From: Yuukianura sp. NJ FZ-2021
Lineage: Eukaryota
Reading direction: 5' to 3'
Assembly: GCA_046563655.1 (NCBI GenBank)
Contig: JAJCTO010000009.1
Span: 62,001 to 126,000, forward strand
DNA length: 64,000 bases
Part shown: one piece after another, positions 1,999-60,638 of the stretch
Numbering within the stretch: position 1 is the first letter of the stretch
Layout of the letters: every line of letters begins with the position of its first letter
Made by a program: the position numbers and the translations under genes
The notes under the pieces: model-generated
Seen by the model: the letters and a program-made list of their open reading frames with translations, nothing else
Told to the model about the DNA's origin: nothing
Databases searched by the model: none

Positions 1999-2001
1999 TG
2001 A

Positions 2002-4767: not shown

Positions 4768-5791
4768 AAACAAGGTAGGGCGATGCTCAAGGGTTGAGCA
4801 TAGGTCTTCTGTCGGGAGTTGACAATTCATACGACATAGACCGGTCGGCCGCAAAGGCGTTAAAAAAAACTATATGAAAAACCGTTTTCACAAAATTTCA
4901 GCACCGAAACGTCGTTCACAATTTTCAGTGCGGATGTAGGGGATTCTTGTGCACAAATTGCAGAAAGATGGTCAAGAAGCGTCTGAAAACGTTTTTAACA
5001 AAAATTGAAAAAAACCGTTTGCATAAAAAAAAAGTGTTCAAATTTAGCTCTGAACAGTTTTCGCCCTCTTCAAAACTGTGTTACAAATTGTGCTCTGGTA
5101 TGCACAAATTTTTAAATAACAACGTCCCTTACCCAGCGTCAAAATTACTGCGCAATACGACATTTATGTACATCTATTTATAAGTGTGCACAAAATCGAA
5201 CGTTGAGAGAAGCGGTCGAATATCGTTTCCTTAAAATCAAAATCGGTTCACCTAAATGCACAACTCAACCTTTATGGATCGCTTGTAGTCATTAGTGTGC
5301 GTCATGCACAAAATCGAACGTTGAGGGTGAGGCATCGAATGTCGCTTGTTTAAATTCAAAATTATAAAAATTTCTTGTGAATGCAGCCTGGAACCCTGCC
5401 AAGCACTGTTTACATATTATGAATTTAAGCCAGGTTTTCTACCCTCTAACTAGGCTTAATTTAACAACGTAATTAAAGTAACTGTCACAAAATGACCAGA
5501 TCAAAATTTCGTTGTTTAAATAAATTTTGAGTGTAACCGAAACCAAAAAATTTCGTCGAGCCACGATACTGCGGATACGTAAAGTAGCCGCTAACATCTA
5601 CGTTGTTAATATAACACTTTGAGTGCAACGTAGACGTACTGAAAACACTTGAGCCATACATGACCCCCTGACTGCGATGTGGCTTATGTTTCAGTGGAAA
5701 GGGTCCTAAAAAATGTGACAGACAGACGGACAAAGTCGTATCAATAGTCTTCTTCAGCACGTCGTAGACGTGCGTCTCCAGAAGACTAAAA
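4768..5791 (-). mobile_element. Non-autonomous Helentron derivative (HINE / DINE-1-like), ~1.02 kb
   Basis: The minus-strand 5' end is TTTTAGTCTTC...GCACGTC-TAC-GACGTGC...GAAGACTA (nested hairpin) followed by a GTCC/GTCT microsatellite. The 3' end is AGAAGAC (subTIR), the stem-loop ATGCTCAA-CCC-TTGAGCAT (4783-4801) and CTTGTTT. Both ends lie in T runs with no TSD. About 600 bp are homologous to 59498-60070. Confidence 0.8.
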
Positions 5792-8700
5792 GTATTTTCC
5801 AAAAATTTTATCCAAAAATGGCCAAAAATGCTGAATGTTCAATTTTGATTTAGAAAATGTAATAGTCGGTTTTTCCCTGAAGTTCGATTGAAGTGTGAGT
5901 TGTCATGATTCATGGTGTCAAAATGAGAACTCATCGTTTGCATCTAAAGTGAAGGCATGCTTGACACTTTACCGGCACTTCTAGTTTAAGCTCAAGGATG
6001 GAGGCTGACAACATGTTTTTCAACGTGTGATTTAGTCAGTTATGCACTACGACGAAGTGGACCGTTATTTGATGAATACCAAGAATTTTTGTATAAGCGG
6101 TAAAAAGGCATAAGTTCCATTTTTCACAACGTTTAACACCTTGTTGTATAGTTTCAACCCTAAGTTTAACCTAAATCGTAGTTAGACTTTTGCACTTGTG
6201 GTATGGTGGAGCTGGGCTAAAATACAATTTCGGACTATTGTTGGGCAGAAGTTTTCAGACATGATCTATTTAATGTGCAAGTTGGTAGGCAATATAAAAA
6301 AGTATTTTCCAAAAATTGTATCCAGAAATGGCCAAAAATGCTGAATGTTCATTTTTGATTTAGAAAATGTAAGGGTCGGTTTTTCCCAGAAGTTCCATCG
6401 ACGTGTGAGTTATCATGATTTATGATGTCAAAGTGAAAACTCATGGGTTGCATCTGAAATGAAGGCATGCTTGACACTTCACCGGCAATTCTAGTTTGAG
6501 CTCAAGGATGGACGCTGACAACATGTTTTTCAACGTGTGATTTAGTCAGTTATGCAGTACGACGAAGCGGACCGTTATTTGATGAATACCAAGAATTTTG
6601 GTATGAGCGGTAACAAGGCATAAATTTCATTTTTCAGAACGTTTAACACCTTGTTGTATAGTTTCAACCCTAAGTTAAACCTAAATCGTAGTTAGACTTA
6701 TGCACATGTGGTATGGTGGAGCTGTGCTAAAATACAATTTCGGACTATTGTTGGGCAGAAGTTTTCAGACATGATCTATTTAATGTGCAAGTCGGTAGAA
6801 AATATTAAAAAGTATTTTCCAAAAATTTTATCCAAAAATGGCCAAAAATGCTGAATGCTCAATTTTGATTTAGAAAATGTAATAGTCGGTTTTTCCCTGA
6901 AGTTCGATTGAAGTGTGAGTTGTCATGATTCATGGTGTCAAAATGAGAACTCATCGTTTACATCTAAAGTGAAGGCATGCTTGACACTTTACCGGCACTT
7001 CTAGTTTAAGCTCAAGGATGGACGCTGACAACATGTTTTTCAACGTGTGATTTAGTCAGTTATGCATTACGACGAAGTGGACCGTTATTTGATGAATACC
7101 AAGAATTTTGGTATGAGCGGTAACAAGGCATAAGTTCCATTTTTCACAACGTTTGACACCTTGTTGTATAGTTTCAACCCTAAGTTAAACCTAAATCGTA
7201 GTTAGACTTATGCACTTGTGGTATGGTGGAGCTGGGCTAAAATACAATTTCGGACTATTGTTGGGCAGAAGTTTTCAGACATGATCTATTTAATGTGCAA
7301 GTTGGTAGGAAATATAAAAAAGTATTTTCCAAAAATTGTATCCAGAAATGGCCAAAAATGCTGAATGTTCATTTTTGATTTAGAAAATGTAAGGGTCGGT
7401 TTTTCCCAGAAGTTCCATCGACGTGTGAGTTATCATGATTTATGATGTCAAAGTGAAAACTCATGGGTTGCATCTGAAGTGAAGGCATGCTTGACACTTT
7501 ACCGGCACTTCTAGTTTAAGCTCAAGGATGGACGCTGACAACATGTTTTTCAACGTGTGATTTAGTCAGTTATGCACTACGACGAAGTGGACCGTTATTT
7601 GATGAATACCAAGAATTTTTGTATAAGCGGTAAAAAGGCATAAGTTCCATTTTTCACAACGTTTAACACCTTGTTGTATAGTTTCAACCCTAAGCTTAAC
7701 CTAAATCGTAGTTAGACTTTTGCACTTGTGGTATGGTGGAGCTGGGCTAAAATACAATTTCGGACTATTGTTGGGCAGAAGTTTTCAGACATGATCTATT
7801 TAATGTGCAAGTTGGTAAGCAATATAAAAAAGTATTTTCCAAAAGTTGTATCCAGAAATGGCCAAAAATGCTGAATGTTCATTTTTGATTTAGAAAATGT
7901 AAGGGTCGGTTTTCCCCAGAAGTTCCATCGACGTGAGAGTTATCATGATTTATGATGTCAAAGTGAAAACTCATGGGTTGCATCTGAAATGAAGGCATGC
8001 TTGACACTTCACCGGCACTTCTAGTTTGAGCTCAAGGATGGACGCTGACAACATGTTTTTCAACGTGTGATTTAGTCAGTTATGCAGTACGACGAAGTGG
8101 ACCGTTATTTGATGAATACCAAGAATTTTGGTATGAGCGGTAACAAGGCATAAATTCCATTTTTCAGAACGTTTGACACCTTGTTGTATAGTTTCAACCC
8201 TAAGTTAAACCTAAATCGTAGTTAGACTTATGCACATGTGGTATGGTGGAGCTGTGCTAAAATACAATTTCGGACTATTGTTAGGCAGAAGTTTTCAGAC
8301 ATGATCTATTTAATGTGCAAGTCGGTAGAAAATATTAAAAAGTATTTTCCAAAAATTTTATCCAAAAATGGCCAAAAATGCTGAATGTTCAATTTTGATT
8401 TAGAAAATGTAATAGTCGGTTTTTCCCAGAAGTTCCATCGACGTGTGAGTTATCATGATTTATGATGTCAAAGTGAAAACTCATGGGTTGCATCTGAAGT
8501 GAAGGCATGCTTGACACTTTACCGGCACTTCTAGTTTAAGCTCAAGGATGGACGCTGACAACATGTTTTTCAACGTGTGATTTAGTCAGTTATGCACTAC
8601 GACGAAGTGGACCGTTATTTGATGAATACCAAGAATTTTGGTATGAGCGGTAAAAAGGCATAAGTTCCATTTTTCACAACGTTTAACACCTTGTTGTATA

Positions 8701-11700
8701 GTTTCAACCCTAAGTTAAACCTAAATCGTAGTTAGACTTATGCACTTGTGGTATGGTGGAGCTGGGCTAAAATACAATTTCGGACTATTGTTGGGCAGAA
8801 GTTTTCAGACATGATCTATTTAATGTGCAAGTTGGTAAGCAATATAAAAAAGTATTTTCCAAAAATTGTATCCAGAAATGGCCAAAAATGCTGAATGTTC
8901 ATTTTTTGATTTAGAAAATGTAAGGGTCGGTTTTTCCCAGAAGTTCCATCGACGTGTGAGTTATCATGATTTATGATGTCAAAGTGAAAACTCATGGGTT
9001 GCATCTGAAATGAAGGCATGCTTGACACTTCACCGGCACTTCTAGTTTGAGCTCAAGGATGGACGCTGACAACATGTTTTTCAACGTGTGATTTAGTCAG
9101 TTATGCAGTACGACGAAGTGGACCGTTATTTGATGAATACCAAGAATTTTGGTATGAGCGGTAACAAGGCATAAATTCCATTTTTCAGAACGTTTGACAC
9201 CTTGTTGTATAGTTTCAACCCTAAGTTAAACCTAAATCGTAGTTAGACTTATGCACATGTGGTATGGTGGAGCTGTGCTAAAATACAATTTCGGACTATT
9301 GTTGGGCAGAAGTTTTCAGACATGATCTATTTAATGTGCAAGTCGGTAGAAAATATTAAAAAGTATTTTCCAAAAATTTTATCCAAAAATGGCCAAAAAT
9401 GCTGAATGTTCAATTTTGATTTAGAAAATGTAATAGTCGGTTTTTCCCAGAAGTTCCATCGACGTGTGAGTTATCATGATTTATGATGTCAAAGTGAAAA
9501 CTCATGGGTTGCATCTGAAATGAAGGCATGCTTGACACTTCACCGGCACTTCTAGTTTGAGCTCAAGGATGGACGCTGAGAACATGTTTTTCAACGTGTG
9601 ATTTAGTCAGTTATGCAGTACGACGAAGTGGACCGTTATTTGATGAATACCAAGAATTTTGGTATGAGCGGTAACAAGGCATAAATTTCCATTTTTCAGA
9701 ACGTTTAACACCTTGTTGTATAGTTTCAACCCTAAGTTAAACCTAAATCGTAGTTAGACTTATGCACATGTGGTATGGTGGAGCTGTGCTAAAATACAAT
9801 TTCGGACTATTGTTGGGCAGAAGTTTTCAGACATGATCTATTTAATGTGCAAGTCGGTAGAAAATATTAAAAAGTATTTTCCAAAAATTTTATCCAAAAA
9901 TGGCCAAAAATGCTGAATGTTCAATTTTGATTTAGAAAATGTAATAGTCGGTTTTTCCCTGAAGTTCGATTGAAGTGTGAGTTGTCATGATTCATGGTGT
10001 CAAAATGAGAACTCATCGTTTGCAGCTAAAGTGAAGGCATGCTTGACACTTTACCGGCACTTCTAGTTTAAGCTCAAGGATGGACGCTGACAACATGTTT
10101 TTCAACGTGTGATTTAGTCAGTTATGCATTACGACGAAGTGGACCGTTATTTGATGAATACCAAGAATTTTGGTATGAGCGGTAACAAGGCATAAGTTCC
10201 ATTTTTCACAACGTTTGACACCTTGTTGTATAGTTTCAACCCTAAGTTAAACCTAAATCGTAGTTAGACTTATGCACTTGTGGTATGGTGGAGCTGGGCT
10301 AAAATACAATTTCGGACTATTGTTGGGCAGAAGTTTTCAGACATGATCTATTTAATGTGCAAGTTGGTAGGCAATATAAAAAAGTATTTTCCAAAAATTG
10401 TATCCAGAAATGGCCAAAAATGCTGAATGTTCAATTTTGATTTAGAAAATGTAAGGGTCGGTTTTTCCCAGAAGTTCCATCGACGTGTGAGTTATCATGA
10501 TTTATGATGTCAAAGTGAAAACTCATGGGTTGCATCTGAAATGAAGGCATGCTTGACACTTCACCGGCACTTCTAGTTTGAGCTCAAGGATGGACGCTGA
10601 CAACATGTTTTTCAACGTGTGATTTAGTCAGTTATGCAGTACGACGAAGTGGACCGTTATTTGATGAATACCAAGAATTTTGGTATGAGCGGTAACAAGG
10701 CATAAATTCCATTTTTCAGAACGTTTGACACCTTGTTGTATAGTTTCAACCCTAAGTTAAACCTAAATCGTAGTTAGACTTATGCACATGTGGTATGGTG
10801 GAGCTGTGCTAAAATACAATTTCGGACTATTGTTAGGCAGAAGTTTTCAGACATGATCTATTTAATGTGCAAGTCGGTAGAAAATATTAAAAAGTATTTT
10901 CCAAAAATTTTATCCAAAAATGGCCAAAAATGCTGAATGTTCAATTTTGATTTAGAAAATGTAATAGTCGGTTTTTCCCTGAAGTTCCATCGACGTGTGA
11001 GTTATCATGATTTATGATGTCAAAGTGAAAACTCATGGGTTGCATCTGAAATGAAGGCATGCTTGACACTTCACCGGCACTTCTAGTTTGAGCTCAAGGA
11101 TGGACGCTGAGAACATGTTTTTCAACGTGTGATTTAGTCAGTTATGCAGTACGACGAAGTGGACCGTTATTTGATGAATACCAAGAATTTTGGTATGAGC
11201 GGTAACAAGGCATAAATTCCATTTTTCAGAACGTTTAACACCTTGTTGTATAGTTTCAACCCTAAGTTAAACCTAAATCGTAGTTAGACTTATGCACATG
11301 TGGTATGGTGGAGCTGTGCTAAAATACAATTTCGGACTATTGTTGGGCAGAAGTTTTCAGACATGATCTATTTAATGTGCAAGTCGGTAGAAAATATTAA
11401 AAAGTATTTTCCAAAAATTTTATCCAAAAATGGCCAAAAATGCTGAATGTTCAATTTTGATTTAGAAAATGTAATAGTCGGTTTTTCCCTGAAGTTCGAT
11501 TGAAGTGTGAGTTGTCATGATTCATGGTGTCAAAATGAGAACTCATCGTTTGCAGCTAAAGTGAAGGCATGCTTGACACTTTACCGGCACTTCTAGTTTA
11601 AGCTCAAGGATGGACGCTGACAACATGTTTTTCAACGTGTGATTTAGTCAGTTATGCATTACGACGAAGTGGACCGTTATTTGATGAATACCAAGAATTT

Positions 11701-14700
11701 TGGTATGAGCGGTAACAAGGCATAAGTTCCATTTTTCACAACGTTTGACACCTTGTTGTATAGTTTCAACCCTAAGTTAAACCTAAATCGTAGTTAGACT
11801 TATGCACTTGTGGTATGGTGGAGCTGGGCTAAAATACAATTTCGGACTATTGTTGGGCAGAAGTTTTCAGACATGATCTATTTAATGTGCAAGTTGGTAG
11901 GCAATATAAAAAAGTATTTTCCAAAAATTGTATCCAGAAATGGCCAAAAATGCTGAATGTTCAATTTTTGATTTAGAAAATGTAAGGGTCGGTTTTTCCC
12001 AGAAGTTCCATCGACGTGTGAGTTATCATGATTTATGATGTCAAAGTGAAAACTCATGGGTTGCATCTGAAATGAAGGCATGCTTGACACTTCACCGGCA
12101 CTTCTAGTTTGAGCTCAAGGATGGACGCTGACAACATGTTTTTCAACGTGTGATTTAGTCAGTTATGCAGTACGACGAAGTGGACCGTTATTTGATGAAT
12201 ACCAAGAATTTTGGTATGAGCGGTAACAAGGCATAAATTCCATTTTTCAGAACGTTTGACACCTTGTTGTATAGTTTCAACCCTAAGTTAAACCTAAATC
12301 GTAGTTAGACTTATGCACATGTGGTATGGTGGAGCTGTGCTAAAATACAATTTCGGACTATTGTTAGGCAGAAGTTTTCAGACATGATCTATTTAATGTG
12401 CAAGTCGGTAGAAAATATTAAAAAGTATTTTCCAAAAATTTTATCCAAAAATGGCCAAAAATGCTGAATGTTCAATTTTGATTTAGAAAATGTAATAGTC
12501 GGTTTTTCCCTGAAGTTCCATCGACGTGTGAGTTATCATGATTTATGATGTCAAAGTGAAAACTCATGGGTTGCATCTGAAATGAAGGCATGCTTGACAC
12601 TTCACCGGCACTTCTAGTTTGAGCTCAAGGATGGACGCTGACAACATGTTTTTCAACGTGTGATTTAGTCAGTTATGCAGTACGACGAAGTGGACCGTTA
12701 TTTGATGAATACCAAGAATTTTGGTATGAGCGGTAACAAGGCATAAATTTCATTTTTCAGAACGTTTAACACCTTGTTGTATAGTTTCAACCCTAAGTTA
12801 AACCTAAATCGTAGTTAGACTTATGCACATGTGGTATGGTGGAGCTGTGCTAAAATACAATTTCGGACTATTGTTGGGCAGAAGTTTTCAGACATGATCT
12901 ATTTAATGTGCAAGTCGGTAGAAAATATTAAAAAGTATTTTCCAAAAATTTTATCCAAAAATGCTGAATGTTCAATTTTGATTTAGAAAATGTAATAGTC
13001 GGTTTTTCCCTGAAGTTCGATTGAAGTGTGAGTTGTCATGATTCATGGTGTCAAAATGAGAACTCATCGTTTGCAGCTAAAGTGAAGGCATGCTTGACAC
13101 TTTACCGGCACTTCTAGTTTAAGCTCAAGGATGGACGCTGACAACATGTTTTTCAACGTGTGATTTAGTCAGTTATGCAGTACGACGAAGTGGACCGTTA
13201 TTTGATGAATACCAAGAATTTTGGTATGAGCGGTAACAAGGCATAAATTCCATTTTTCAGAACGTTTGACACCTTGTTGTATAGTTTCAACCCTAAGTTA
13301 AACCTAAATCGTAGTTAGACTTATGCACATGTGGTATGGTGGAGCTGTGCTAAAATACAATTTCGGACTATTGTTAGGCAGAAGTTTTCAGACATGATCT
13401 ATTTAATGTGCAAGTCGGTAGAAAATATTAAAAAGTATTTTCCAAAAATTTTATCCAAAAATGGCCAAAAATGCTGAATGTTCAATTTTGATTTAGAAAA
13501 TGTAATAGTCGGTTTTTCCCTGAAGTTCCATCGACGTGTGAGTTATCATGATTTATGATGTCAAAGTGAAAACTCATGGGTTGCATCTGAAATGAAGGCA
13601 TGCTTGACACTTCACCGGCACTTCTAGTTTGAGCTCAAGGATGGACGCTGACAACATGTTTTTCAACGTGTGATTTAGTCAGTTATGCAGTACGACGAAG
13701 TGGACCGTTATTTGATGAATACCAAGAATTTTGGTATGAGCGGTAACAAGGCATAAATTTCCATTTTTCAGAACGTTTAACACCTTGTTGTATAGTTTCA
13801 ACCCTAAGTTAAACCTAAATCGTAGTTAGACTTATGCACATGTGGTATGGTGGAGCTGTGCTAAAATACAATTTCGGACTATTGTTGGGCAGAAGTTTTC
13901 AGACATGATCTATTTAATGTGCAAGTCGGTAGAAAATATTAAAAAGTATTTTCCAAAAATTTTATCCAAAAATGGCCAAAAATGCTGAATGTTCAATTTT
14001 GATTTAGAAAATGTAATAGTCGGTTTTTCCCTGAAGTTCGATTGAAGTGTGAGTTGTCATGATTCATGGTGTCAAAATGAGAACTCATCGTTTGCATCTA
14101 AAGTGAAGGCATGCTTGACACTTTACCGGCACTTCTAGTTTAAGCTCAAGGATGGACGCTGACAACATGTTTTTCAACGTGTGATTTAGTCAGTTATGCA
14201 TTACGACGAAGTGGACCGTTATTTGATGAATACCAAGAATTTTGGTATGAGCGGTAACAAGGCATAAGTTCCATTTTTCACAACGTTTGACACCTTGTTG
14301 TATAGTTTCAACCCTAAGTTAAACCTAAATCGTAGTTAGACTTATGCACTTGTGGTATGGTGGAGCTGGGCTAAAATACAATTTCGGACTATTGTTGGGC
14401 AGAAGTTTTCAGACATGATCTATTTAATGTGCAAGTTGGTAGGCAATATAAAAAAGTATTTTCCAAAAATTGTATCCAGAAATGGCCAAAAATGCTGAAT
14501 GTTCAATTTTGATTTAGAAAATGTAAGGGTCGGTTTTTCCCAGAAGTTCCATCGACGTGTGAGTTATCATGATTTATGATGTCAAAGTGAAAACTCATGG
14601 GTTGCATCTGAAATGAAGGCATGCTTGACACTTCACCGGCACTTCTAGTTTGAGCTCAAGGATGGACGCTGACAACATGTTTTTCAACGTGTGATTTAGT

Positions 14701-45795: not shown

Positions 45796-45799
45796 TAAA

Positions 45800-45816: not shown

Positions 45817-46032
45817 CGACTTTCTTGCCCAGTTAAGGTAATAGAACAACAGGTAATGTAGGGTACGTTTTTTTTTCTTTTTAGTTATAATAGTAATTAT
45901 CATTGCGAAACCTACAAAACCAAAACCACAAGCAGCCAAACCCTTAAGGCGACATACATCGGCAATACATTCAGCGTTTATATATTATTTCACGTTAGGG
46001 TACTAGCAAATACAATCCCAACACACTTAAAG

Positions 46033-46349
46033 TTGGTTAAGAAATTTGGTTCCATGCCGTCAACGTTATAACAACTTATGCGCACCTTGATAACATCCGC
46101 GCAAGGCTTTTCAACCTACATGCTAAGGCGAGATCGCAACTTCATGCAGATTTCACATAACAGAACCTGTTCAGCCATAGTGTGTTCAGAAATTGGTCAA
46201 GAACTTTGGTTCCGTGCCGTCAACGTTATAACACCTTATGCGCACTTTGATAACATCCGCGCAAAGTTTTACAACCGACATGCTAAGGCCAGAACGCAAA
46301 TCCATTTAGATTTCACACATATAACCTGTCAGCCATAATTTATTCAGAT
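46033..46349 (+). repeat. Diverged 160-bp tandem duplication in the leader of the LTR element
   Basis: ttggtt/caagaa.tttggttcc.tgccgtcaacgttataaca.cttatgcgcac.ttgataacatccgcgcaa occurs at 46033 and 46193. Confidence 0.85.
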
Positions 46350-49300: not shown

Positions 49301-49789
49301 AACTTAGAAAATCGCCTTGACAACTCTCTGGCAGCCAGCTTCTTTCCTAGTTGTGACGGAACGAAAGATTGGGCAAGTAGTTGCGAGACAGTAAGATATG
49401 CGATGGGTCTTTGTGGCTCAGTGGTCAGAGCAAGTTCCCGGAGTGGAGATTGGCGTGGGACCGATTCCACCCCATTCAACCCCAGACTCAAACTTTTGGC
49501 ATAGCGTTGGGATATGATGTCTCAATGTTGGCCCGAGGTATACTTGCGTCATACAATTGAGCTTTCGGAACTCCTAGGAGGACAAGTAACCGCACAATTG
49601 ACCAGAGTATAAATTCAAGTAAATCTAATGCACGTCCACGCAGTCTTTTCTTTCTCTCTCCACGAACATGAACAGATAACACCTCAGCTCGTCAGTTTTG
49701 GTCCTCACAACCCGACGGCCCAGTAACTACCCTCAGACTCAACGCCTGCAGTACCGTAGAACAGTAAGTTTACTTATGTTTGAGCAATA

Positions 49790-51048
49790 ATGCCAAAGAT
49801 AACAACACGGTCCTCCGCCCAATCGCCTCCTCCTAATCCTGAAACCGAGCAATTACAAACTCCCGGATTTTCACAACACCAGGGGAAACTGAACTTACAG
49901 CCTCGAGTAGTCCTGCCGTCTTCCATTCCTCCTGCCCCACCTCTCCCGAAACCCAAGTCACAGGCGTCGCTTAATCCCACAAATCCACCACCATATATCC
50001 CTTCACCGCTACCTCTCCCTCAAGTGATCCCTCCGTCTGCCATCAGCGGTAGTAAATTACCCTCGCACATCCCCACTTCCTCACAATTACCTACGACACC
50101 GTTGAAATTTTCAGCCAGTCTTCCCATCAATATGTCCCAAGCAACACCGACGGGCGGTTCTAAGTCCGAATCGAAAACAACATACTATAAAATTAAAGTA
50201 CCAACGTTCAGCGGCAAACCCGGAGAAGATGTTGTGCGTTATCTGACGAAGTTTCAATTGGCGATGACCGGGAACTCCATCCCGAAGTCGGAGTGGCCGA
50301 TTTTGCTGAGTAATCATTTGACCGGTACGGCTGAAGCTTGGCTTTTCTCTTTTTGGAATCAACCCGATGTTCCACATCGCCTCCGGCCTCGGCCCTTTTG
50401 GTTGACTACAATATGGTGGAACAAGCTCTGATAAAAGCGTTTGGAAGCACCAGTACGATGTCAGCTGAACAAAAAGTTATCAATCGACGACAACACTTGA
50501 ATGAATCCGCTACGGAATACACTTACGATCTGACCAACCTTCTCCGTCTGATGGATCCGGATATGCCCGAATCGCGTCAAGTACGTTGGTTAATACGTAA
50601 CCTACGACCATCCAACTTAACTGCATTGGGCATCCACAAACCTAAAACCATTGACGAATTCTTAAAAGCGTTAAAATCCATAGAAGAAACGAACGAATTA
50701 CTTCTACACCAAAAAGATGTGCATGTTATGACCCAAGCTCCAGCGGTGCTGGCGGCACAGACAGAGCAATTAGACAAATTCGGACGAATCATCGAGCAAA
50801 TGCAAACATTCATATTACAACAGCAAAATTGTGGAGAGAGTACAGCTTCTGGGCGCCACCTAACTGAAACCGGTGTATGGTGCTCAATGCATCAATCCGC
50901 GACAAACGGCGACGCAGAATGCCGTGCTCAGCCAAAAAACGGTCAGTGGATGGAGACAGCGGCCAACGCCCATCCGTTCTTGACATCAGTGACGAGCCGC
51001 CAATCCGATCCAGTCATAGAATCCTTGAACACCAGTTACTCCCCTTAA
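49790..51048 (+). pseudogene. gag: Ty3/Gypsy-like gag, frameshifted
   Basis: Pro-rich N-terminus, then KVPTFSGKPGEDVVRYLTKF...HLTGTAEAWL. A second frame gives RRQHLNESATEYTYDL...MPESRQVRWLIRNLRP and a degenerate knuckle WCSMHQSATNGDAEC. Confidence 0.8.
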
Positions 51049-51129
51049 CCACCACAATGACAACCAACTCGCCTCGTATTATGTCACCATTCCCACATTT
51101 ACACATCTCTTATCCGGCATCGCTTTTTG

Positions 51130-52600
51130 TTTTAAAAATGGGTACAAATGGTCTTTTGAAGGTATGTGGTTATGTCGTAGAATGCCCACCCGAAATTAGG
51201 TTACATAAGGGAGCGGGAATAAGCTTAGTCAATTCAGCTTTAGTTAAGTCTAACTATATTCAGTCGCCAGATCATACAATAATGTTGCAAGATTTTGCTC
51301 TACAAGTACTTTTGGGAACCGATTTTCTTCGGAATCAACGTGGCATAATCGATTTCGACCGTTTAGCTATTAGTTGGGAAGGCACAACACACGATGGTAG
51401 AATTTTAATCTGTTGTGCTGTATATACATTTACGAAGATTACACAGCCCAGGCTGTCCCTCTTACTCCCATGCTCCGGTTCTCCCTCGGCGCCAAATCGA
51501 AATAGTGTTGGTTGGTGTTCCCAAAGTTTTGTTTGGACGGAAATAGGACTTGGTCGACCTGTAATGCCCAACCTACACGTTTTCGAAACGAACACGAGCA
51601 TGATGACATACACTGACGATAACATGGAGCATTTCAATGAGTTAATCGAGTGTCCCGCTGAAACTCCGAATTTGATTCATACAAGGGTCCCTGAGTCAGA
51701 TTTGTCAGAGTATAGCGAAGAGTTAAACCCCGGGAAGATTGCAATGAGATATGCAATGAAACCTTCTTCGATATCAGTGGCCATGGTACGAAGGAGCACT
51801 GGCGCGAAGGTCCTCACCTCCCCAGTGAAATACAGTGTCCACACGGTCTATACACGTTGATAAATCATCCTCAAAAAAGCGGAGTTAATCGACCCAAGTA
51901 CGGCAGAGCAAGAAGCAGATAAAAATTTACCAACTTTAGTATTTTTAACCTAACAGGAGAACGTAATGAACTATCACACCAATCGGACATTACTGAGAAT
52001 AAATCCCGAGTCGGAACCAGACCAAAGGCACAGTTACAGGAACTTTTGGTTGAGTTCAACGATATTTTTGCTTACAAGAGAGACATTGGCGAAATTATAC
52101 TATATCCTTCTAACCAGCGTAACCTGTGTACTAATTACAATATGCCCACTTAATTATTCAGTATAATGCCCATACCTTCAAAGCCAACTGGCCCGTCGAA
52201 CAACGGAAATGCGGTCATTCGATAATAACAAAGTCAAAAATTACTAAAACATAGTTGAATGGTACCATGTAATGCTACTACTTTTCAGACAAAGATTTCG
52301 TCCCAAATCAATTTTGTGTAGGTTATTTTGTACTGGATTCGCTTATTACACTTATTTTGCGGTGATTAACAATCGGGACTTCCGAAACTAAATACGAAGC
52401 GTTCCAAGCATTATGGTTGCAAATTCAGACTGCGATTGCAGAACAACAACGCAAAACCAATTCTATACCGTAAGAGACCAAGTACTGATGAACAAATTTT
52501 AATCAATTTGTTTGGCGCACAAATTTACTGATATTATTCCGCTTAGTTCTGTCAAGCCTATAACGTACAACATTTACAAATCTAATAACACTAAAGCGCA
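51130..52600 (+). pseudogene. Decayed Gypsy-like pol remnant (protease and pre-RT linker; RT/RNase H/integrase cores not seen)
   Basis: LHKGAGISLV lacks the catalytic Asp of the D[ST]GA motif. VLLGTDFLRNQRGIIDF matches the protease ILGxDFL motif, and QLQELLVEFNDIFA at 52031-52072 resembles the pre-RT linker. I found no YxDD or DDE motifs. Confidence 0.6.
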
Positions 52601-54934
52601 AGTAACCAGTTGGCGGGTTTTTTCATTCATCGGTTATCAAATCCGGTTAATCTCTGGAAATATATCGAAACTCGAAGCTATTTACTGTCTACCTATGCTC
52701 CTATTGTTGTGGAAGGTTGGGAGGAGTGTTTTCTTTCTCCCTATTTCTGTCTTCGATGCACCATCCAATCTACATTTCCATTCGTAGGGGTCTGATACAC
52801 ATTTTGACGCAATCAAAGCATAATGACCGAATTCTCACTTTCTTGCAAACCGAGAAATGTGGGTTTCAGAAAGAGGCACGCTGCTCACGATTGGCGCCAT
52901 TACACGCTCCGCTACCCAGTACTGAGCGCAACCTGTTCAGTTTGACCTTCACACAGAAATATGGCCAGAAAAATGGTCGCACGCCATTCCATTGTTTCCA
53001 GAGTTACCCACGCTTCCTCCTAAACTTACCTCGTGTCTACCCGGACTCCACTTCTCATAACTCTGAGCAACAGACTCTAGTAGTTGTTAGGAAGCACGCG
53101 AACAAGTAGGATCACTAAAACACCAGATCGCCTTACCTATTCCAAGTTTTGAGTTGGCCACAAGCATTTTGGTTTTAGTTTTAACTTGTATTTCACTCTC
53201 TAGCAAGATGGGTAAACAAAAAAACAAATCTACACCAGGTTATCCAGTAAGTCGATGTTTTTAATTTTCTCAAATAATTTGCAAAACTTGCGTCGCCGTG
53301 CCTTTCTATGGCAATGATTTGTATGTAATTTAATAGGAATTTGCGGAAAATTGGCGGAAAAAATTGTTTGGAGGAAGATTTTTGCAAACCCCGAACTACT
53401 GGATAACCTCTTGTAGCCTATTTGTAGATTGGTTGCTATAGTAACCTTGCTCTCTAGTGTGAATGTTCATAATTTAAGTCAAAATAATGAACTTAGTTTT
53501 AGTATTAGTCTTAGTTTTAGTTTTAGTCTAACTCTTTTCCATTTACAATTGTATCATCGCAAGGCAGCGTCAACAACATGCGACTTCTACTCGTCGAGAT
53601 AATCCTTCTTCTCCACATCTCCACGATCAATTGTGCGCTTCCTTCCACAGATGATGAAGCCTTAGATCGTGTTTACTTTTCATCTTTAGCTCAGAAGCAA
53701 CCTATATTCTAACTCTGTGACCCCTACGTTGGATCGTTTACTTTTCGACTTCCAGCAACGACGACATGCTTATTGCCTGAACTTGTTACTCTCACTCGAA
53801 TTTTTTCGACGATTTGGATCTATTACCAATAGTCCTTCTGTGAGCGCTTGGCTTTGTTTCACGTTGTAGTCAGTTTACCATCCCACTGTCATTCTCATTG
53901 TCACCTGCGCTGTTCGTCCATCGGAATAATTATTTGGCGTGTCTACAATGGAAGAGACCGAGCAGCTTGATTAGTCAACGGTCCATACAATTGACACTAC
54001 TGTGAAATGCAGCACGCCGCTCTGTTCACATCTTCGCAGACCCGACACATAACGATGGCATACCACCAACTTTCTGAACCTAAACTTTCAAATTCGTCTC
54101 ACATACAAAGGCCCTGGACCAGTTTCCCAAACCACAATCCTTCCATATACCCCTCGTCATATCAAGAGGAAGGAACCTTCCTCCAGAATTTAACTGCGCA
54201 AAGTAGCAACGGGTATATCAAGAACTAGAACTCACTACGGTTGCTCAGTCGTGATTTTCGGATCCATCCAACGACCAATTTCTTCATTCAATTTCTTTTA
54301 AGAACACAACGGCCTGCTCTATCCTTGTTCTAACCATCTACAATCAACCGCTCAACAAATATACAAAAAACAAAATCCACAAAACATACTTAAAATGGGT
54401 TTGGACACTTGTGTGATAACCGAGAAATCCATCAAACGTAAAGAAACAGTTTTCGAAAAGTAAACACACACATATAGCTCTAACTTAGTGTAGATTTATT
54501 TCCAATTGAATTATTTCTTTTATGTTTCACAATACTTTGCTTTTCTTCGTTATGTCTTATACAATGTTTTTTCTCTGTTGGGTTTAAGTAATTCATTGTC
54601 AGTACCAACACTTACCTTTCTCTCTTTAATTCGTACATTCTTTCTACAAAATAATATAACATCATTTGACAGTGGCATGCCTGTGCTAACAACTTCTAAA
54701 ACTTTTTCTTTCTATGTTCGTAATCTATTAGTAGCAATGTAGTAACATACATATCCTGTAATCCAGCATTGTATTGACATATATATTATTTGAATGTTGT
54801 ACGAATCTTAGGCTAGTAGCAATTAGTCAAAAAACACATAAAAATATCAAAATGTTAGCATATTGAGCTATGACTTTTGTAAACAGACTCTGTTCAAATT
54901 CCTTGACAGGAATTTCGCCGTGACCCGGGGAATA

Positions 54935-55367
54935 TGTGAGTAACCCCGCCGGGCGGGATTCCTCACTTCGTCTCCAAGCAGAGGTGTGTTACGGCACTCG
55001 GGATGAGGCTAGGATCTCAGTCATATCCCGATGGTCAGTCAGTGAGTGATGAGCGCTTGGTCGAGGAGGAACTATCTTCCAGATGGTTCCTCTTCCGACC
55101 GAGAGTCACGGCGGAGTCCAGTCACTGGAGTAGGGAGATTCTAGAGACAATAAAGGAACGTAGCCACCCTTTGCCTTCGTCTACGACTTTCCTTGAGACA
55201 GCATTCAGCCATATTCCTCAGCCACGATTCTTAGAGCTGGCACCCAGGACCTGCGCCACCTCGGTGGTGTTCGGACCTGGGCACGGAGGTCGATGAACCA
55301 GTGGACCGCCGACCAAGCGGCGACGTGTGTGACCCATGTCCAGGTTCACCCTGGCTGGGAGGTCACA
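54935..55367 (+). repeat. 3' LTR (433 bp)
   Basis: Preceded by a short purine tract ggggaata and nearly identical to the 5' LTR. Confidence 0.97.
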
Positions 55368-56093
55368 GTTGTATAAGCGGTAAAAAGGCATAAGTTCCAT
55401 TTTTCACAACGTTTAACACCTTGTTGTATAGTTTCAACCCTAAGTTTAACCTAAATCGTAGTTAGACTTTTGCACTTGTGGTATGGTGGAGCTGGGCTAA
55501 AATACAATTTCGGACTATTGTTGGGCAGAAGTTTTCAGACATGATTTATTTAATGTGCAAGTTGGTAGGCAATATAAAAAAGTATTTTCCAAAAATTGTA
55601 TCCAGAAATGGCCAAAAATGCTGAATGTTCATTTTTGATTTAGAAAATGTAAGGGTCGGTTTTTCCCAGAAGTTCCATCGACGTGTGAGTTATCATGATT
55701 TATGATGTCAAAGTGAAAACTCATGGGTTGCACCTGAAATGAAGGCATGCTTGACACTTCACCGGCACTTCTAGTTTGAGCTCAAGGATGGACGCTGACA
55801 ACATGTTTTTCAACGTGTGATTTAATCAGTTATGCAGTACGACGAAGTGGACCGTTATTTGATGAATACCAAGAATTTTGGTATGAGCGGTAACAAGGCA
55901 TAAATTTCATTTTTCAGAACGTTTGACACCTTGTTGTATAGTTTCAACCCTAAGTTAAACCTAAATCGTAGTTAGACTTATGCACATGTGGTATGGTGGA
56001 GCTGTGCTAAAATACAATTCCGGACTATTGTTGGGCAGAAGTTTTCAGACATGATCTATTTAATGTGCAAGTCGGTAGAAAATATTAAAAAGT
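55368..56093 (+). repeat. 510-bp satellite, ~1.4 units between the two insertions
   Basis: Same unit sequence, in phase with the main block. Confidence 0.98.
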
Positions 56094-57399
56094 TAGGTTG
56101 GAGAGCGAGTTGAGCTGTCAAAGAGGAAGGTTGTTGTTATTCCGCTCCGTGAGATAAAGTTAACTGTTAAGAAGACAAAAGCGAAATGGAAAATTTCTTC
56201 AGTTCCTCACGTGATTTAATCCATAGGATTAACAGTCTAGAAAAAGTGGTACTGAATAAAGAATTGCTTCAAAGTTTCCTATTAGTAAAAAGTGAAATTG
56301 ATGAAGGAATTTTAAACTTCGTGTGTCGTTGCACAGAAAATCAGGTTGCAGAAAAGGGCATCAAAACGGAAGGAATTGTGAAAATGGAGCCAGGCTTTGA
56401 ACACAGAATTGTTATTTATGGACTCTCAACATCGAGTAAGTTGGACTTATTAAACCAGGTGACCCAGTTCTTTGAATTGCGCATGAAATTTACACCAAAA
56501 ATTTTGAAAGCGGTGAAACTTGGACAAACGGAATTTTCGCCGGTGCTAGTGACTGTTGACTCTGCAAAGCAAAAAGCAGCAATTTTTCGGAACTCAGCCA
56601 ATTTGAAAGGATCCAAAATTTCAATTGTCGACGACTTATCGGAACACGACCGAAAACTGAAAAAATCATTGCTCCCTGTTTTACAAAAAGCGAAAGCCAT
56701 TGGGAAAAAGGCATTTTTTCGAGGAACAACGTTGTTCATCAACAATAAAGCCTACGACCCATCTACAGACAATTACGATGCAGTACCAGAAAACTTAAAC
56801 GCAGAAATTGAGATTAGAAAGACATTGGACACTTTTTTCGAAAGGAAGGAGACCTTGGACCTGTTCTTCACAGCTTCACAGCAAGAGCACCCCGAACAGA
56901 CATCAAATAATGACGAATCATTACTTGAAATAGACCAAGCTCGGCAATCCCGTTCCCAGCCGAAGAAAAAGAAGAAAAATGACCACAAGAATTGTATGAC
57001 TTTTGCACCAGGAGACAGGAAACTCATCCATGAGAAGATGGAAAAGGCAATCAAAGATATTCAAAATTTTAGCGACATAGGCAAAACGTCAAGAGAGTTA
57101 GCGAAAGAGTTTATTGTAGAGAAATGCGCTCATTGCGCAAAAAATAATGATGCAAAGTTAAACTGTTTTTACGAAGAAATGTTTAAAGAGTTTCAGTTTC
57201 ATTTAGAAGAATATTTTGAATGGAATGAATATGATAAAAAATACGTCAAAGGAAGCAATACTAAATGCAACTGTAAAGATTGAGGCTAGTTATTTTGAGT
57301 CAAAACTCGCTCTCCAGGTTTGTAAAACAGATTAGAGAGTAAATTGGATGTGACCCCTGGGCTTCGTGCCCGATGGGTTGAATAAATAAATAAATAAAT
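56094..57399 (+). mobile_element. 1.3-kb non-LTR retroposed element encoding only an ORF1-like protein
   Basis: 14-bp TSD AAATATTAAAAAGT (56080-56093 and 57400-57413), (TAAA)n tail at 57381-57399, 3' stem-loop at 57353-57378, a single ORF and no RT or endonuclease. Confidence 0.88.
56186..57283 (+). CDS. LINE ORF1p-like RNA-binding protein (RRM + CTD type) with a C-terminal extension, 365 aa
   Basis: Uninterrupted ORF. The pattern RIVIYGL...AVKLG...PVLVTV...IFRNSANLKGSKISIVDDLSEHDRKLKKSL...AKAIGKKAFFRGTTLFINNKAY fits L1/CR1/L2-type ORF1 proteins. The N-terminus is leucine-rich and probably helical; the C-terminus has PKKKKK, CAHC and CNC. Confidence 0.75.
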   Translation: MENFFSSSRDLIHRINSLEKVVLNKELLQSFLLVKSEIDEGILNFVCRCTENQVAEKGIKTEGIVKMEPGFEHRIVIYGLSTSSKLDLLNQVTQFFELRMKFTPKILKAVKLGQTEFSPVLVTVDSAKQKAAIFRNSANLKGSKISIVDDLSEHDRKLKKSLLPVLQKAKAIGKKAFFRGTTLFINNKAYDPSTDNYDAVPENLNAEIEIRKTLDTFFERKETLDLFFTASQQEHPEQTSNNDESLLEIDQARQSRSQPKKKKKNDHKNCMTFAPGDRKLIHEKMEKAIKDIQNFSDIGKTSRELAKEFIVEKCAHCAKNNDAKLNCFYEEMFKEFQFHLEEYFEWNEYDKKYVKGSNTKCNCKD

Positions 57400-59497
57400 A
57401 AATATTAAAAAGTATTTTCCAAAAATTTTATCCAAAAATGGCCAAAAATGCTGAATGTTCAATTTTGATTTAGAAAATGTAATAGTCGGTTTTTCCCTGA
57501 AGTTCGATTGAAGTGTGAGTTGTCATGATTCATGGTGTCAAAATGAGAACTCATCGTTTGCATCTAAAGTGAAGGCATGCTTGACACTTTACCGGCACTT
57601 CTAGTTTAAGCTCAAGGATGGACGCTGACAACATGTTTTTCAACGTGTGATTTAGTCAGTTATGCACTACGACGAAGTGGACCGTTATTTGATGAATACC
57701 AAGAATTTTTGTATAAGCGGTAAAAAGGCATAAGTTCCATTTTTCACAACGTTTAACACCTTGTTGTATAGTTTCAACCCTAAGTTTAACCTAAATCGTA
57801 GTTAGACTTTTGCACTTGTGGTATGGTGGAGCTGGGCTAAAATACAATTTCGGACTATTGTTGGGCAGAAGTTTTCAGACATGATCTATTTAATGTGCAA
57901 GTTGGTAGGCAATATAAAAAAGTATTTTCCAAAAATTGTATCCAGAAATGGCCAAAAATGCTGAATGTTCATTTTTGATTTAGAAAATGTAAGGGTCGGT
58001 TTTTCCCAGAAGTTCCATCGACGTGTGAGTTATCATGATTTATGATGTCAAAGTGAAAACTCATGGGTTGCATCTGAAATGAAGGCATGCTTGACACTTC
58101 ACCGGCACTTCTAGTTTGAGCTCAAGGATGGACGCTGACAACATGTTTTTCAACGTGTGATTTAGTCAGTTATGCATTACGACGAAGTGGACCGTTATTT
58201 GATGAATACCAAGAATTTTGGTATGAGCGGTAACAAGGCATAAGTTCCATTTTTCACAACGTTTAACACCTTGTTGTATAGTTTCAACCCTAAGTTAAAC
58301 CTAAATCGTAGTTAGACTTATGCACTTGTGGTATGGTGGAGCTGGGCTAAAATACAATTTCGGACTATTGTTGGGCAGAAGTTTTCAGACATGATCTATT
58401 TAATGTGCAAGTTGGTAGGCAATATAAAAAAGTATTTTCCAAAAATTGTATCCAGAAATGGCCAAAAATGCTGAATGTTCATTTTTGATTTAGAAAATGT
58501 AAGGGTCGGTTTTTCCCAGAAGTTCCATCGACGTGTGAGTTATCATGATTTATGATGTCAAAGTGAAAACTCATGGGTTGCACCTGAAATGAAGGCATGC
58601 TTGACACTTCACCGGCACTTCTAGTTTGAGCTCAAGGATGGACGCTGACAACATGTTTTTCAACGTGTGATTTAATCAGTTATGCAGTACGACGAAGTGG
58701 ACCGTTATTTGATGAATACCAAGAATTTTGGTATGAGCGGTAACAAGGCATAAATTTCATTTTTCAGAACGTTTGACACCTTGTTGTTTCAACCCTAAGT
58801 TAAACCTAAATCGTAGTTAGACTTATGCACATGTGGTATGGTGGAGCTGTGCTAAAATACAATTCCGGACTATTGTTGGGCAGAAGTTTTCAGACATGAT
58901 CTATTTAATGTGCAAGTCGGTAGAAAATATTAAAAAGTATTTTCCAAAAATTTTATCCAAAAATGGCCAAAAATGCTGAATGTTCAATTTTGATTTAGAA
59001 AATGTAATAGTCGGTTTTTCCCTGAAGTTCGATTGAAGTGTGAGTTGTCATGATTCATGGTGTCAAAATGAGAACTCATCGTTTGCAGCTAAAGTGAAGG
59101 CATGCTTGACACTTTACCGGCACTTCTAGTTTAAGCTCAAGGATGGACGCTGACAACATGTTTTTCAACGTGTGATTTAGTCAGTTATGCATTACGACGA
59201 AGTGGACCGTTATTTGATGAATACCAAGAATTTTGGTATGAGCGGTAACAAGGCATAAGTTCCATTTTTCACAACGTTTGACACCTTGTTGTATAGTTTC
59301 AACCCTAAGTTAAACCTAAATCGTAGTTAGACTTATGCACTTGTGGTATGGTGGAGCTGGGCTAAAATACAATTTCGGACTATTGTTGGGCAGAAGTTTT
59401 CAGACATGATCTATTTAATGTGCAAGTTGGTAGGCAATATAAAAAAGTATTTTCCAAAAATTGTACCCAGAAATGGCCAAAAATGCTGAATGTTCAT
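57400..59497 (+). repeat. 510-bp satellite, ~4.1 terminal units
   Basis: Same unit, with a 5-bp deletion near 58787. It ends at gttcattttt where the Helentron starts. Confidence 0.98.
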
Positions 59498-60638
59498 TTT
59501 TAGTCTTCTGGAGACGCACGTCTACGACGTGCTGAAGAAGACTATTGATACGACTTTTCTGTCTGTCCGTGTGTCCTGTTTTTTAGTACCCTTTCCGCTG
59601 AAACATAAGCCCCATCGCAGTCGGGGGGTTATCTACGGCTCAAGTGTTTTTAGTAGGTCTACATTGTACTCAAAGTCTTACATTAACAACGTCAAAATAT
59701 GCGGCTGCTTCGCGTTGCAGTTTCTTAAGTCCTCAATATTTTTGTATTAGGTCTGCATTGTACTCAAAATATTTTTAAACAACGAAGTTTTGATCTTCTC
59801 ATTTTCTGACATTATGTTTAGTTACGTTGTTAAATTAAGACTGATAAGAGGGTAGAAAATCCGGCTTAAATGATTACTATGTGAATTGTGAATGACAGGT
59901 TTAAATTTGCACTCACAAGAAATTCTTATAATTTTGACTTTAAAAAGCGCTTTTCGACCCTATAACTTATACACTTAATAACACATGGTGCATTTATTTG
60001 AACCGATTTTAAGGAAACGATATTCGACACCTTCACTCGACGTTTAATTTTGTGCGTGATGCATACTTATAGGCGGGTGCACAAAACTCAATTTCGGTAT
60101 CATTATTTTGAGGCAGTTTGTTGTACGCTCTTTTCGCTATTAGTACATTGCCATGGCAACACCTGCATTATATTATATGTGCATGTTGTTTACTTAATTT
60201 CAACAATAATTGTTTCAATTTCAACATCACTATTTTGATAGAGTTAGTTAACACTCTTTATGCTACAGTGTAGTCATGACATCACTAACGGTACTTTATG
60301 TTTAAATTGTTTATTAGTTGTTTATGCTAATAAATTGCATAAAGTATTTGTGACTGCAATTCGTAATTATTTTTAAAAACATCTTTTACATTTTGTTTCG
60401 TATAGCCTCAACTTCATAAATTGACAATAATTGTTTCATTATATTCATTCAAGTGCTTAGTTTATAGTTTAGCTCATAGTACTCAGTTCTATTCCAAGTA
60501 GTGTATTATTTCAATCTCAGTTACAAGTCTACACAGTTTCGTCGGGTAAAAATATACATTTTCATCATTTATATTTATATATCTACTATCAAAATATATC
60601 ACTCCATTGACGTTTCGCTACATTATACAGGTATAATC

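What the first reader, a model, noticed from the sequence alone, without database searches (positions are those of the whole stretch)
5732..59557. The ~54-kb satellite block is bracketed by inverted, identical Helentron 5' termini
Seen: 5732-5791 and 59498-59557 are a perfect 60-bp inverted pair directly abutting the two ends of the array. Similarity continues but decays outward for ~600 bp (5180-5730 vs 59560-60070). Each element points away from the array. Inference: either this family prefers T runs in or at the edge of this satellite (the two junctions are only ~55 bp apart in monomer phase), or Rep-nicked ends helped seed or amplify the array.
Basis: partly seen in the sequence, partly recalled or inferred. 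Interest (0 to 1): 0.7.

Follow-up and report, generated by a model that had tools for sequence, protein, structure and literature searches.

The report
Two Helentron ends flank satellite array
Two copies of a very abundant rolling-circle transposon family sit back to back, pointing outwards, in runs of T at the two visible ends of a 510-base satellite repeat, which looks like ordinary transposon pile-up in repeat-rich DNA and not a process that made the satellite.

Summary
5732-5791 is the exact reverse complement of 59498-59557 (60/60), and similarity runs about 600 bp outwards at about 80%. The 60-mer is a true 5' end of a Helentron/DINE-1-type element: TTTT, hairpin (subTIR plus inner repeat), then a (GTCY)n microsatellite. 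On the right it is followed by a Rep gene on the same strand.

Contigs from public runs show that this 5' region is extremely abundant. In a second organism it has unlike upstream flanks starting exactly at 59498.

The block is not pure satellite. It holds 42,380 bp of 510-bp monomers (83.1 units), a 10-kb LTR element and a 1.3-kb non-LTR-like insertion.

- **Junctions:** both lie on T-runs of the element's own strand. The monomer has 16 such runs, so a 55-bp phase gap has about 0.34 probability by chance.
- **No shared origin:** the monomer shows no similarity to the element, and the array lies upstream of both 5' ends.
- **Edges:** edge monomers are as homogenised as interior ones.

Best reading: two independent insertions into a T-run-rich satellite. 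The left border stays unexplained, because the satellite does not resume within 5.8 kb. Rep-seeded amplification is unsupported. A neighbouring 402-bp array does carry six such 5' modules. Earlier notes of this scan report similar Helentron-in-satellite cases elsewhere in this genome.

The parts
59498..59557 (+). 5' terminal module of the right (coding) Helentron-type element: TTTT, hairpin AGTCTTCT..GCACGTC-tac-GACGTGC..AGAAGACT, then ATTGATACGAC
   Evidence: Perfect inverted twin of 5732-5791. DNA fold -12.8 kcal/mol, z -2.89, 3 of 200 shuffles fold as well. In X3, 10 contigs have unlike flanks before 59498. In X1, X2 and X3, 13, 5 and 4 contigs carry the uninterrupted satellite past 59501.
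59558..60165 (+). High-copy 5' region of the right element, opening with a (GTCY)n-like microsatellite (about 59558-59580)
   Evidence: 79-81% similar to the left copy. Summed contig depth in X1 falls 186,199 > 81,699 > 49,098 > 6,181 and then to 83-1,669 in the coding part. Many joints and loose ends start at 59557-59579.
60639..64000 (+). Rep/helicase-type transposase gene, open at the window end. First ATG of the frame is at 60639. Candidate 63-nt GT..AG intron at 61324-61386.
   Evidence: Frames 60480-61334 (DUF6570, 1.3e-07) and 61365-63998 (Helitron_like_N, 3.6e-20). P0001 residues 177-1236 align to 60729-63983 in one frame-3 HSP at 43%. The intron is inferred from the sequence printed.
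5732..5791 (-). 5' terminal module of the left element
   Evidence: 60/60 identity to the right module. It abuts monomer position 1.
5180..5731 (-). 5' region of the left element, with no coding part behind it
   Evidence: There is no similarity to the right element beyond about 610 bp and no Rep-like frame in 1-5800.
4783..4811 (-). Candidate 3' subTIR (CAGAAGAC) directly followed by a perfect 8-bp-stem hairpin; possible 3' end region of the left element. Inconclusive.
   Evidence: Perfect 8-bp hairpins occur at 12 loci in 21,620 non-satellite bases. The fold is weak, z -1.89, and 10 of 200 shuffles fold as well.
5792..45362 (+). 510-bp satellite, 77.6 units
45363..55368 (+). LTR element inserted in the satellite: LTRs 45363-45795 and 54935-55367 (99.5% over 433), TG..CA ends, GTTG target duplication, no long pol frame
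55369..56091 (+). Satellite, resuming in phase after the LTR element
   Evidence: monomer positions 298-510, then one full unit.
56092..57411 (+). Non-LTR-like insertion with one 370-aa frame, an (AATA)n tail and an 11-bp target duplication ATATTAAAAAG, in the same A-run that holds the left Helentron junction
   Evidence: Pfam gives no family.
57412..59497 (+). Satellite: 4 full units plus the first 51-55 bp of a unit
2479..4583 (+). 402-bp tandem array (5.2 units, 97% matches). Each unit begins with a related Helentron 5' module, six modules in all. The array ends just after the sixth hairpin.

Best explanation
The 60-mer is the conserved 5' terminal module (T-run, subTIR/inner-repeat hairpin, short spacer) of a very high-copy Helentron/DINE-1-type family. 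Two members landed independently, in opposite orientations, in T-runs of an already existing and homogenised 510-bp satellite. One is a coding element on the right. The other is a non-coding, HINE-like copy of another subfamily on the left. The satellite is a transposon sink: it also took an LTR element and a non-LTR-like element. It is rich in this family's target. The perfect identity of the two 60-mers reflects constraint on the end that the transposase must recognise, while the interiors differ by about 20%. The satellite lies upstream of both 5' ends, so neither element copies or moves it. Shown: the anatomy, the orientation, the T-run junctions, the abundance and the lack of homology to the monomer. 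Inferred: that the two insertions were independent, and that the left border (no satellite beyond the left element) comes from a later rearrangement or an incomplete transposition.
For: 5' anatomy: matched to passages of PMC4067079 and PMC7492417. Rep gene downstream on the same strand. Abundance: the summed contig depth of the first 160 bp of the element (186,199 in X1; 225,870 in X2) is of the same order as the satellite (347,951-374,053; 279,019-290,089). Exact contigs in the coding part have depth 65-174 (the tool warns that depth is not a copy number). Real mobile terminus: X3 has 10 contigs with unlike flanks before 59498. Empty-site form: 13, 5 and 4 contigs in X1, X2 and X3 continue the satellite past 59501. 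Both junctions sit on T-runs of the element's strand; there are 16 such runs per monomer, and the phase closeness has probability 0.34. A/T runs of 4 or more: 30.0 per kb in the satellite against 17.5 per kb elsewhere in the window. Two other transposons interrupt the array cleanly, with target duplications and phase kept. Edge monomers are typical: the nearest relatives of m5792 and m58937 are 99.81% and 100% identical, against a mean of 95.9%. No monomer-element similarity. Passages of PMC4067079 say that subTIRs can be nearly identical between Helentron families that share under 70% identity. Earlier notes of this scan describe similar cases in the same genome (unchecked leads).
Against: The satellite does not resume anywhere in the 5.8 kb left of the left element (best short hit E 0.56). 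A simple complete insertion is therefore not shown for the left copy, and the right copy's far end is outside the window. No contig listed bridges 59497|59498 with 31 or more letters on each side (4,371 pieces were not shown), so the junctions rest on this assembly alone. X1, X2 and X4 are one sample and may be the window's own source. The window holds eight 5' modules of this kind (two at the junctions, six in the 402-bp array). That points to local clustering, which a purely random-insertion picture does not predict. Sixty perfect bases next to about 82% identity could also come from gene conversion.
Confidence: 0.58

Rival explanations
1. The left border was made by the transposition itself. 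The left element's 5' end was joined to a satellite T-run, but termination at its 3' end was bypassed. Donor-flank DNA was carried along: the roughly 180 bp after the candidate 3' end, the 402-bp array and the BEL/Pao pieces. On this reading the satellite resumes only beyond the window start.
For: A candidate 3' subTIR plus hairpin at 4783-4811 is followed by non-satellite DNA. There is no satellite remnant in 1-5787. Helitron-type elements are known to capture flanking DNA (passages of PMC12628747, and PMC8268682).
Against: The candidate 3' end is weak: 8 of 10 bases match, fold z is -1.89, and no family 3' end is available for comparison. Nothing in the window marks a second terminator.
Confidence: 0.14
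2. The insertions are old relative to array turnover. Unequal exchange kept expanding and homogenising the stretch between the two elements, while the outer parts of the array were lost. The elements therefore act as passive borders of a younger array.
For: Monomers right next to both junctions have 99.8-100% identical twins deep in the array. There is no satellite outside on the left.
Against: Both 60-mers are unmutated and the right transposase frame is open for more than 1,000 codons, so the elements look young too. The same monomer data fit a recent insertion into a homogeneous array.
Confidence: 0.1
3. Assembly artefact: a satellite contig was joined to high-copy transposon ends by the assembler.
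For: Both sides of each junction are extremely repetitive. No bridging contig was listed.
Against: The two flanks differ by about 20% and carry different contents, a Rep gene against the 402-bp array. Both junctions fall exactly at the family's true terminus and on T-runs, which a random misjoin would not do.
Confidence: 0.05
4. Rep nicking at the two 5' ends seeded or amplified the 510-bp array.
For: Tandem arrays that carry this family's 5' module do exist: the 402-bp array with six modules and the read joints 59996>59498 and 59557>59497. Arrays with multiple Helitron 5' ends are described in Xiong et al. 2016, seen only as cited in passages of PMC12628747.
Against: The 510-bp monomer contains no 5' module and shows no similarity to the element. 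It lies upstream of both nick sites. Satellite-like contigs occur in organism B as well.
Confidence: 0.03

Closest known systems
[quoted passage not shown]
   Same: A string of T's at the boundary. A subTIR a few bases from the 5' end. An inner inverted repeat. A (GTCY)-type microsatellite. TT/T-rich targets. Far more non-coding copies than coding partners. Termini nearly identical between families whose interiors differ widely.
   Different: The inner repeat lies 26 nt from the subTIR, against about 3-22 bp reported. The C-terminal AP endonuclease cannot be seen because the window ends. No certain 3' end is in the window.
Cg_HINE elements carrying satellite-like arrays in the Pacific oyster - PMC7492417 (passages); element-associated, one-sided and standalone arrays - PMC8268682 and PMC12628747
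   Same: The left flank has subTIR, inner repeat and GTCY/GTCC/GTCK microsatellite. The satellite is physically joined to Helentron modules. Arrays with a Helitron module on only one side, and shuffled loci, are described.
   Different: In those elements the array lies inside the element, between a left and a right flank in one orientation. Here the array lies outside, upstream of two left flanks that face away from each other. It is 42 kb long and is not related to the element.
Tandem arrays of truncated Helitrons with multiple 5' ends (Xiong, Dooner & Du 2016; not read, known only through passages of PMC12628747 and PMC12001565)
   Same: The neighbouring 402-bp array has six 5' modules and no recognisable 3' end. 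Depth along the family falls with distance from the 5' end.
   Different: This applies to the 402-bp array, not to the 510-bp satellite that the finding is about.

Membership tests
Helentron / HINE (DINE-1-like) | Rep (HUH) domain of the Helitron superfamily in the coding partner | tested here: met
   Helitron_like_N, E 3.6e-20, residues 194-388 of frame 61365-63998. 66 long homologues carry PF14214 plus PIF1-type helicase domains.
Helentron / HINE (DINE-1-like) | C-terminal AP endonuclease, which separates Helentron from Helitron2 (PMC8788227 passages) | not testable with these tools
   The gene runs off the window at 64000. None of the 15 best homologues carries PF03372/PF14529, while 24 of 66 do. 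In a midpoint-rooted FastTree of the Rep region (63 hits plus query; supports not examined), endonuclease-bearing proteins are scattered over the tree. The query sits next to a clade that holds the Culex protein P0057.
Helentron / HINE (DINE-1-like) | T's at the 5' boundary, subTIR 2-4 nt from the terminus, inner inverted repeat | tested here: met
   TTTT then AGTCTTCT..., paired with AGAAGACT 26 nt later. The same layout occurs in both junction copies and in six modules of the 402-bp array.
Helentron / HINE (DINE-1-like) | Microsatellite ((GTCY)n type) after the 5' structures | tested here: met
   Right copy CTGTCTGTCCGTGTGTCC, left copy TGTCCGTCTGTCTGTC, 402-bp unit TGTCGGTGTCG. Read loose ends there show GTCC/GTCT repeats.
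Helentron / HINE (DINE-1-like) | 3' subTIR complementary to the 5' subTIR, followed by a stem loop | tested here: inconclusive
   A 14-mer search with up to 3 mismatches found only the eight 5' modules, all in 5' orientation. One candidate lies at 4783-4811. The right element's 3' end is outside the window.
Helentron / HINE (DINE-1-like) | Insertion into TT/T-rich sites without target duplication; many copies with different flanks | tested here: inconclusive
   Both 5' junctions lie on T-runs. Diverse flanks occur in X3 and the empty-site form is seen in reads. No 3' junction is visible, so absence of a duplication could not be checked.
HINE with an internal satellite array (left flank - array - right flank) | Array lies between a left and a right flank in the same orientation | tested here: not met
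   Both flanks are 5' (left-flank) modules in inverted orientation, and the array is upstream of each.
Helitron-derived tandem array (multiple 5' ends) | The repeat unit contains element sequence | tested here: not met
   For the 510-bp satellite: local alignment scores of 10.5 and 12.0 against shuffle means of 12.2 and 11.9, and no BLAST hit. The feature is met for the neighbouring 402-bp array.

The most novel reading that the evidence does not exclude
In this genome the 5' ends of this Helentron family mark satellite-array borders non-randomly. One-ended strand transfer by the transposase into satellite T-runs, with the 3' end bypassed, would join arrays to foreign DNA. The transposase itself would then create array borders and shuffle heterochromatin blocks. 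The neighbouring array of six 5' modules would be a by-product of the same repeated initiation.
Probability: 0.07. Interest if true: 0.6.

Novelty: new member of a known kind. Interest (0 to 1): 0.22.

Why it matters
The result gives a clean, fully dissected example of how a T-run-seeking rolling-circle transposon family piles up in a T-run-rich satellite and comes to sit at its visible borders. It separates this case from the known one, in which Helentron relatives carry satellite arrays inside themselves. For annotation, it fixes the family's 5' terminus to the base. It also flags a neighbouring array built from 5' modules. The work does not open a new question unless a genome-wide count shows border enrichment.

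Tried and rejected
- **No whole genome held.** Genome-wide mapping of the 60-mer and the monomer could not be done.
- **Metagenome scans.** Scans for the 5' module, once exact and once degenerate, gave 0 hits each.
- **Earlier-findings look-ups by sequence.** The 5' region and the monomer both returned nothing.
- **Rfam on the whole window.** 0 matches at gathering scores.
- **PDB sequence search with the Rep frame.** 0 hits at E 0.001.
- **402-bp unit against the 510-bp monomer.** No similarity above shuffles.
- **A 13-16 nt resemblance upstream of the 5' modules.** The sequence just upstream in the 402-bp units resembles the start of the monomer: BLAST extended to 5807, with 12 of 13 matching at E 8.7. 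I rejected it as chance or as a reflection of the target's composition.
- **Satellite remnants outside the block.** None; best E values were 0.44-0.56.
- **A low-depth joint, 59845>59408 (depth 8.4, X1).** Left aside as possibly erroneous.
- **First tree attempt.** It timed out. A smaller one ran, without support values or an outgroup.
- **Reading the hairpin as a 3' end.** I considered that the hairpin module is a 3' end and the microsatellite the next element's 5' start, because the 402-bp array stops right after a hairpin. I rejected this because of the Rep gene's orientation, the published left-flank layout, and the flank divergence at 59498 in reads.
Full report
**The observation.** The stretch 5732-5791 is the exact reverse complement of 59498-59557, 60 of 60 bases. 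Both stretches touch the tandem array directly.

Outwards, the flanks stay similar:
- 5335-5791 against 59957-59498 is 79.4% over 465 columns.
- 5188-5261 against 60055-59988 is 81.1% over 74 columns (alignment).

Identity does not fade gradually. It drops in one step from 100% to about 82% at the first base after the 60-mer. The 60-column bins read 98, 82, 85, 65, 72, 80, 68 and 75%.

**What the block contains.** A BLAST of the first unit against the window gave 85 rows, all on the + strand: 82 full 510-bp monomers and 3 partial ones. The layout is:
- Satellite occupies 5792-45362, 55369-56091 and 57412-59497. That is 42,380 bp, or 83.1 units.
- At 45363-55368 lies a 10,006-bp LTR element. 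Its 433-bp LTRs are 99.5% identical, with TG..CA ends and a GTTG duplication. It has no long pol frame.
- At 56092-57411 lies a 1,320-bp insertion with one 370-aa frame, an (AATA)n tail and an 11-bp duplication.

Monomer phase is kept across both insertions. So the "54-kb satellite block" is a 42-kb array that has taken in at least two other transposons.

**What the 60-mer is.** Read in the direction of the right-hand gene, the sequence runs as follows:
- TTTT;
- a hairpin: outer stem AGTCTTCT/AGAAGACT, inner stem GCACGTC/GACGTGC (-12.8 kcal/mol; 3 of 200 shuffles fold as well);
- ATTGATACGAC;
- a GTCY-like microsatellite, CTGTCTGTCCGTGTGTCC on the right and TGTCCGTCTGTCTGTC on the left.

Passages of Thomas et al. 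2014 (PMC4067079) describe Helentrons and DINE-1/HINEs as having a string of T's at the boundary, a subTIR 2-4 nt from the 5' end, a nearby inner inverted repeat and a microsatellite, with TT targets. Passages of PMC7492417 describe the oyster HINE left flank as subTIR, complementary inner repeat and a GTCY/GTCC/GTCK microsatellite. The match is close.

Downstream on the same strand lie two frames, one with DUF6570 (1.3e-07) and one with Helitron_like_N (3.6e-20). They are in the same frame and are separated by what looks like a 63-nt GT..AG intron. A 1,957-aa homologue aligns to 60729-63983 in a single HSP.

**Helentron or Helitron2.** The two differ by a C-terminal AP endonuclease (PMC8788227 passages), and that part of the gene is beyond the window.
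- Of 66 long homologues, 24 carry an endonuclease domain, but none of the best 15 does.
- In a quick Rep-region tree, endonuclease-bearing proteins are scattered throughout, and the query lies beside a clade that holds a Culex protein (no supports, no outgroup).
- Named homologues are mostly from arthropods.
- No solved structure matches at E 0.001.

I call the element Helentron-type on its DNA anatomy and leave the endonuclease open.

**Evidence from public runs.** One search found six runs. I laid four of them on 59200-64000. X1, X2 and X4 are one sample of organism A and may be the window's own source. X3 is organism B.

Summed contig depth in X1 by region:
- satellite: 347,951-374,053;
- first 160 bp of the element: 186,199;
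- next three bins: 81,699, then 49,098, then 6,181;
- coding part: 83-1,669, where contigs without a difference have depth 65-174.

X2 behaves alike. The tool warns that such depth is not a copy number. Even so, the 5' 600 bp clearly belongs to a vastly repeated family, and the coding part does not.

At the junction itself:
- In X3, 10 contigs carry unlike sequence (agreement 0.45) up to exactly 59498. That is what a mobile terminus looks like.
- In X1, X2 and X3, 13, 5 and 4 contigs continue past 59501 with the uninterrupted monomer, which is the empty-site form.
- Joints such as 59996>59498 and 59557>59497 show that the 5' region also occurs in head-to-tail arrays elsewhere.
- No listed contig bridges the junction itself.

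**Are the junction sites special?** The left junction lies in the A-run at monomer positions 506-510, which is a T-run on the left element's strand. The right junction lies in the T-run at positions 52-55.

The consensus monomer has eight T-runs and eight A-runs of four or more. Two opposite-strand sites therefore lie within 55 bp of phase with probability 0.34. Such runs are 1.7 times denser in the satellite than in the rest of the window, 30.0 against 17.5 per kb. Runs of five or more are 2.6 times denser. The non-LTR-like element used the same A-run as the left Helentron. The phase closeness therefore carries no weight, and the satellite is simply target-rich.

**Did the elements make the array?** I found nothing that says so.
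- The monomer shows no similarity to the element or to the 402-bp unit and contains none of the terminal motifs.
- The array lies upstream of both 5' ends. Rolling-circle transposition starts at the 5' end and proceeds towards the 3' hairpin (summary in PMC12628747), so neither element would copy it.
- Monomers next to the junctions are ordinary members of the array. Their nearest relatives are 99.81% and 100% identical, against a mean pairwise identity of 95.9%.
- Satellite-like contigs occur in organism B as well.

**What remains odd.** The satellite does not resume anywhere in the 5.8 kb left of the left element. That stretch holds three things:
- about 600 bp of unknown sequence;
- a 402-bp tandem array (2479-4583; 5.2 units, 97% matches), each unit of which begins with a related 5' module on the + strand. 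Five modules differ from the 60-mer at 9-12 positions. A sixth is cut at 57 nt where the array ends;
- BEL/Pao-like fragments.

A search for a 3' subTIR found only the eight 5' modules. One candidate 3' end, CAGAAGAC directly followed by a perfect 8-bp hairpin, lies at 4783-4811, but its fold is weak. The left border may therefore come from a later rearrangement, from a transposition that ran past its 3' end and carried donor DNA along, or from loss of the outer array. The window cannot tell these apart.

**Comparison with what is known.** Helentron relatives that carry satellite-like arrays do so inside the element, between a left and a right flank in one orientation (PMC7492417). That layout was tested here and is not met. 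Arrays with a Helitron module on only one side, truncated copies and shuffled loci are described in oysters (PMC8268682; PMC12628747). Arrays of truncated Helitrons with many 5' ends are attributed to aberrant rolling-circle replication (Xiong et al. 2016, known to me only through passages). The 402-bp array fits that description; the 510-bp satellite does not.

Earlier notes of this scan report several Helentron-in-satellite cases in other pieces of the same genome, all judged ordinary. I did not check them.

**Verdict.** The best reading (0.58) is two independent insertions of a high-copy, T-run-seeking family into a target-rich satellite. The left border stays unexplained. A role of the transposase in seeding the array is unsupported. 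A genome-wide count of junctions is the decisive test, and it could not be run here.

Noticed in passing
2479-4583: 402-bp tandem array (5.2 units, 97% matches) in which every unit begins with a Helentron-type 5' module, six in all. No recognisable 3' subTIR is present. The array stops 57 nt into the sixth module, just after the hairpin. It looks like an array of truncated elements with multiple 5' ends.
   Followed up: partly
45363-55368: 10-kb LTR element with 433-bp LTRs at 99.5% identity and a GTTG target duplication, but no long pol frame. The three gag-like frames tested gave no Pfam family. It may be a non-autonomous LTR element that inserted recently.
   Followed up: partly
56092-57411: 1.3-kb insertion with a single intact 370-aa frame (no Pfam family), an (AATA)n tail and an 11-bp target duplication. 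It sits in the same A-run of the monomer as the left Helentron junction.
   Followed up: partly
1-1998: BEL/Pao-type retroelement pieces on opposite strands: a DUF1759 gag-like frame on the - strand (1-333, 1.1e-17) and a DUF5641 frame on the + strand (1313-1942, 1.9e-08).
   Followed up: no
60759-60920: 63-bp tandem repeat (2.6 copies, 85%) inside the N-terminal coding part of the transposase frame. It gives a repeated EYREQEQ..RNRAAHVLLRQN peptide, and the homologue P0001 aligns to it at several offsets.
   Followed up: no
4689-4728: Palindrome with 20-nt arms and no spacer (90% complementary), in the unassigned stretch between the 402-bp array and the left element.
   Followed up: no
5485-5838 (-) and 59490-59750 (+): The same reading frame stays open through the 5' module and the next 200 bp or so in both copies, and the microsatellite length difference is 3 nt. 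By eye, from the translations, amino-acid identity is about what neutral divergence would give, so it is probably fortuitous.
   Followed up: no
window 59537-59545, in a contig of run X2 (table 5c): One contig joins the 5' module to AACCT-type repeats (the complement of TTAGG). Some copies of the module may therefore lie next to telomere-like repeats elsewhere in the genome.
   Followed up: no
5792-59497: Monomers fall into three clusters at 3.5% distance. The A and B types are mixed in no strict higher-order period. Several monomers tens of kb apart are 100% identical.
   Followed up: partly
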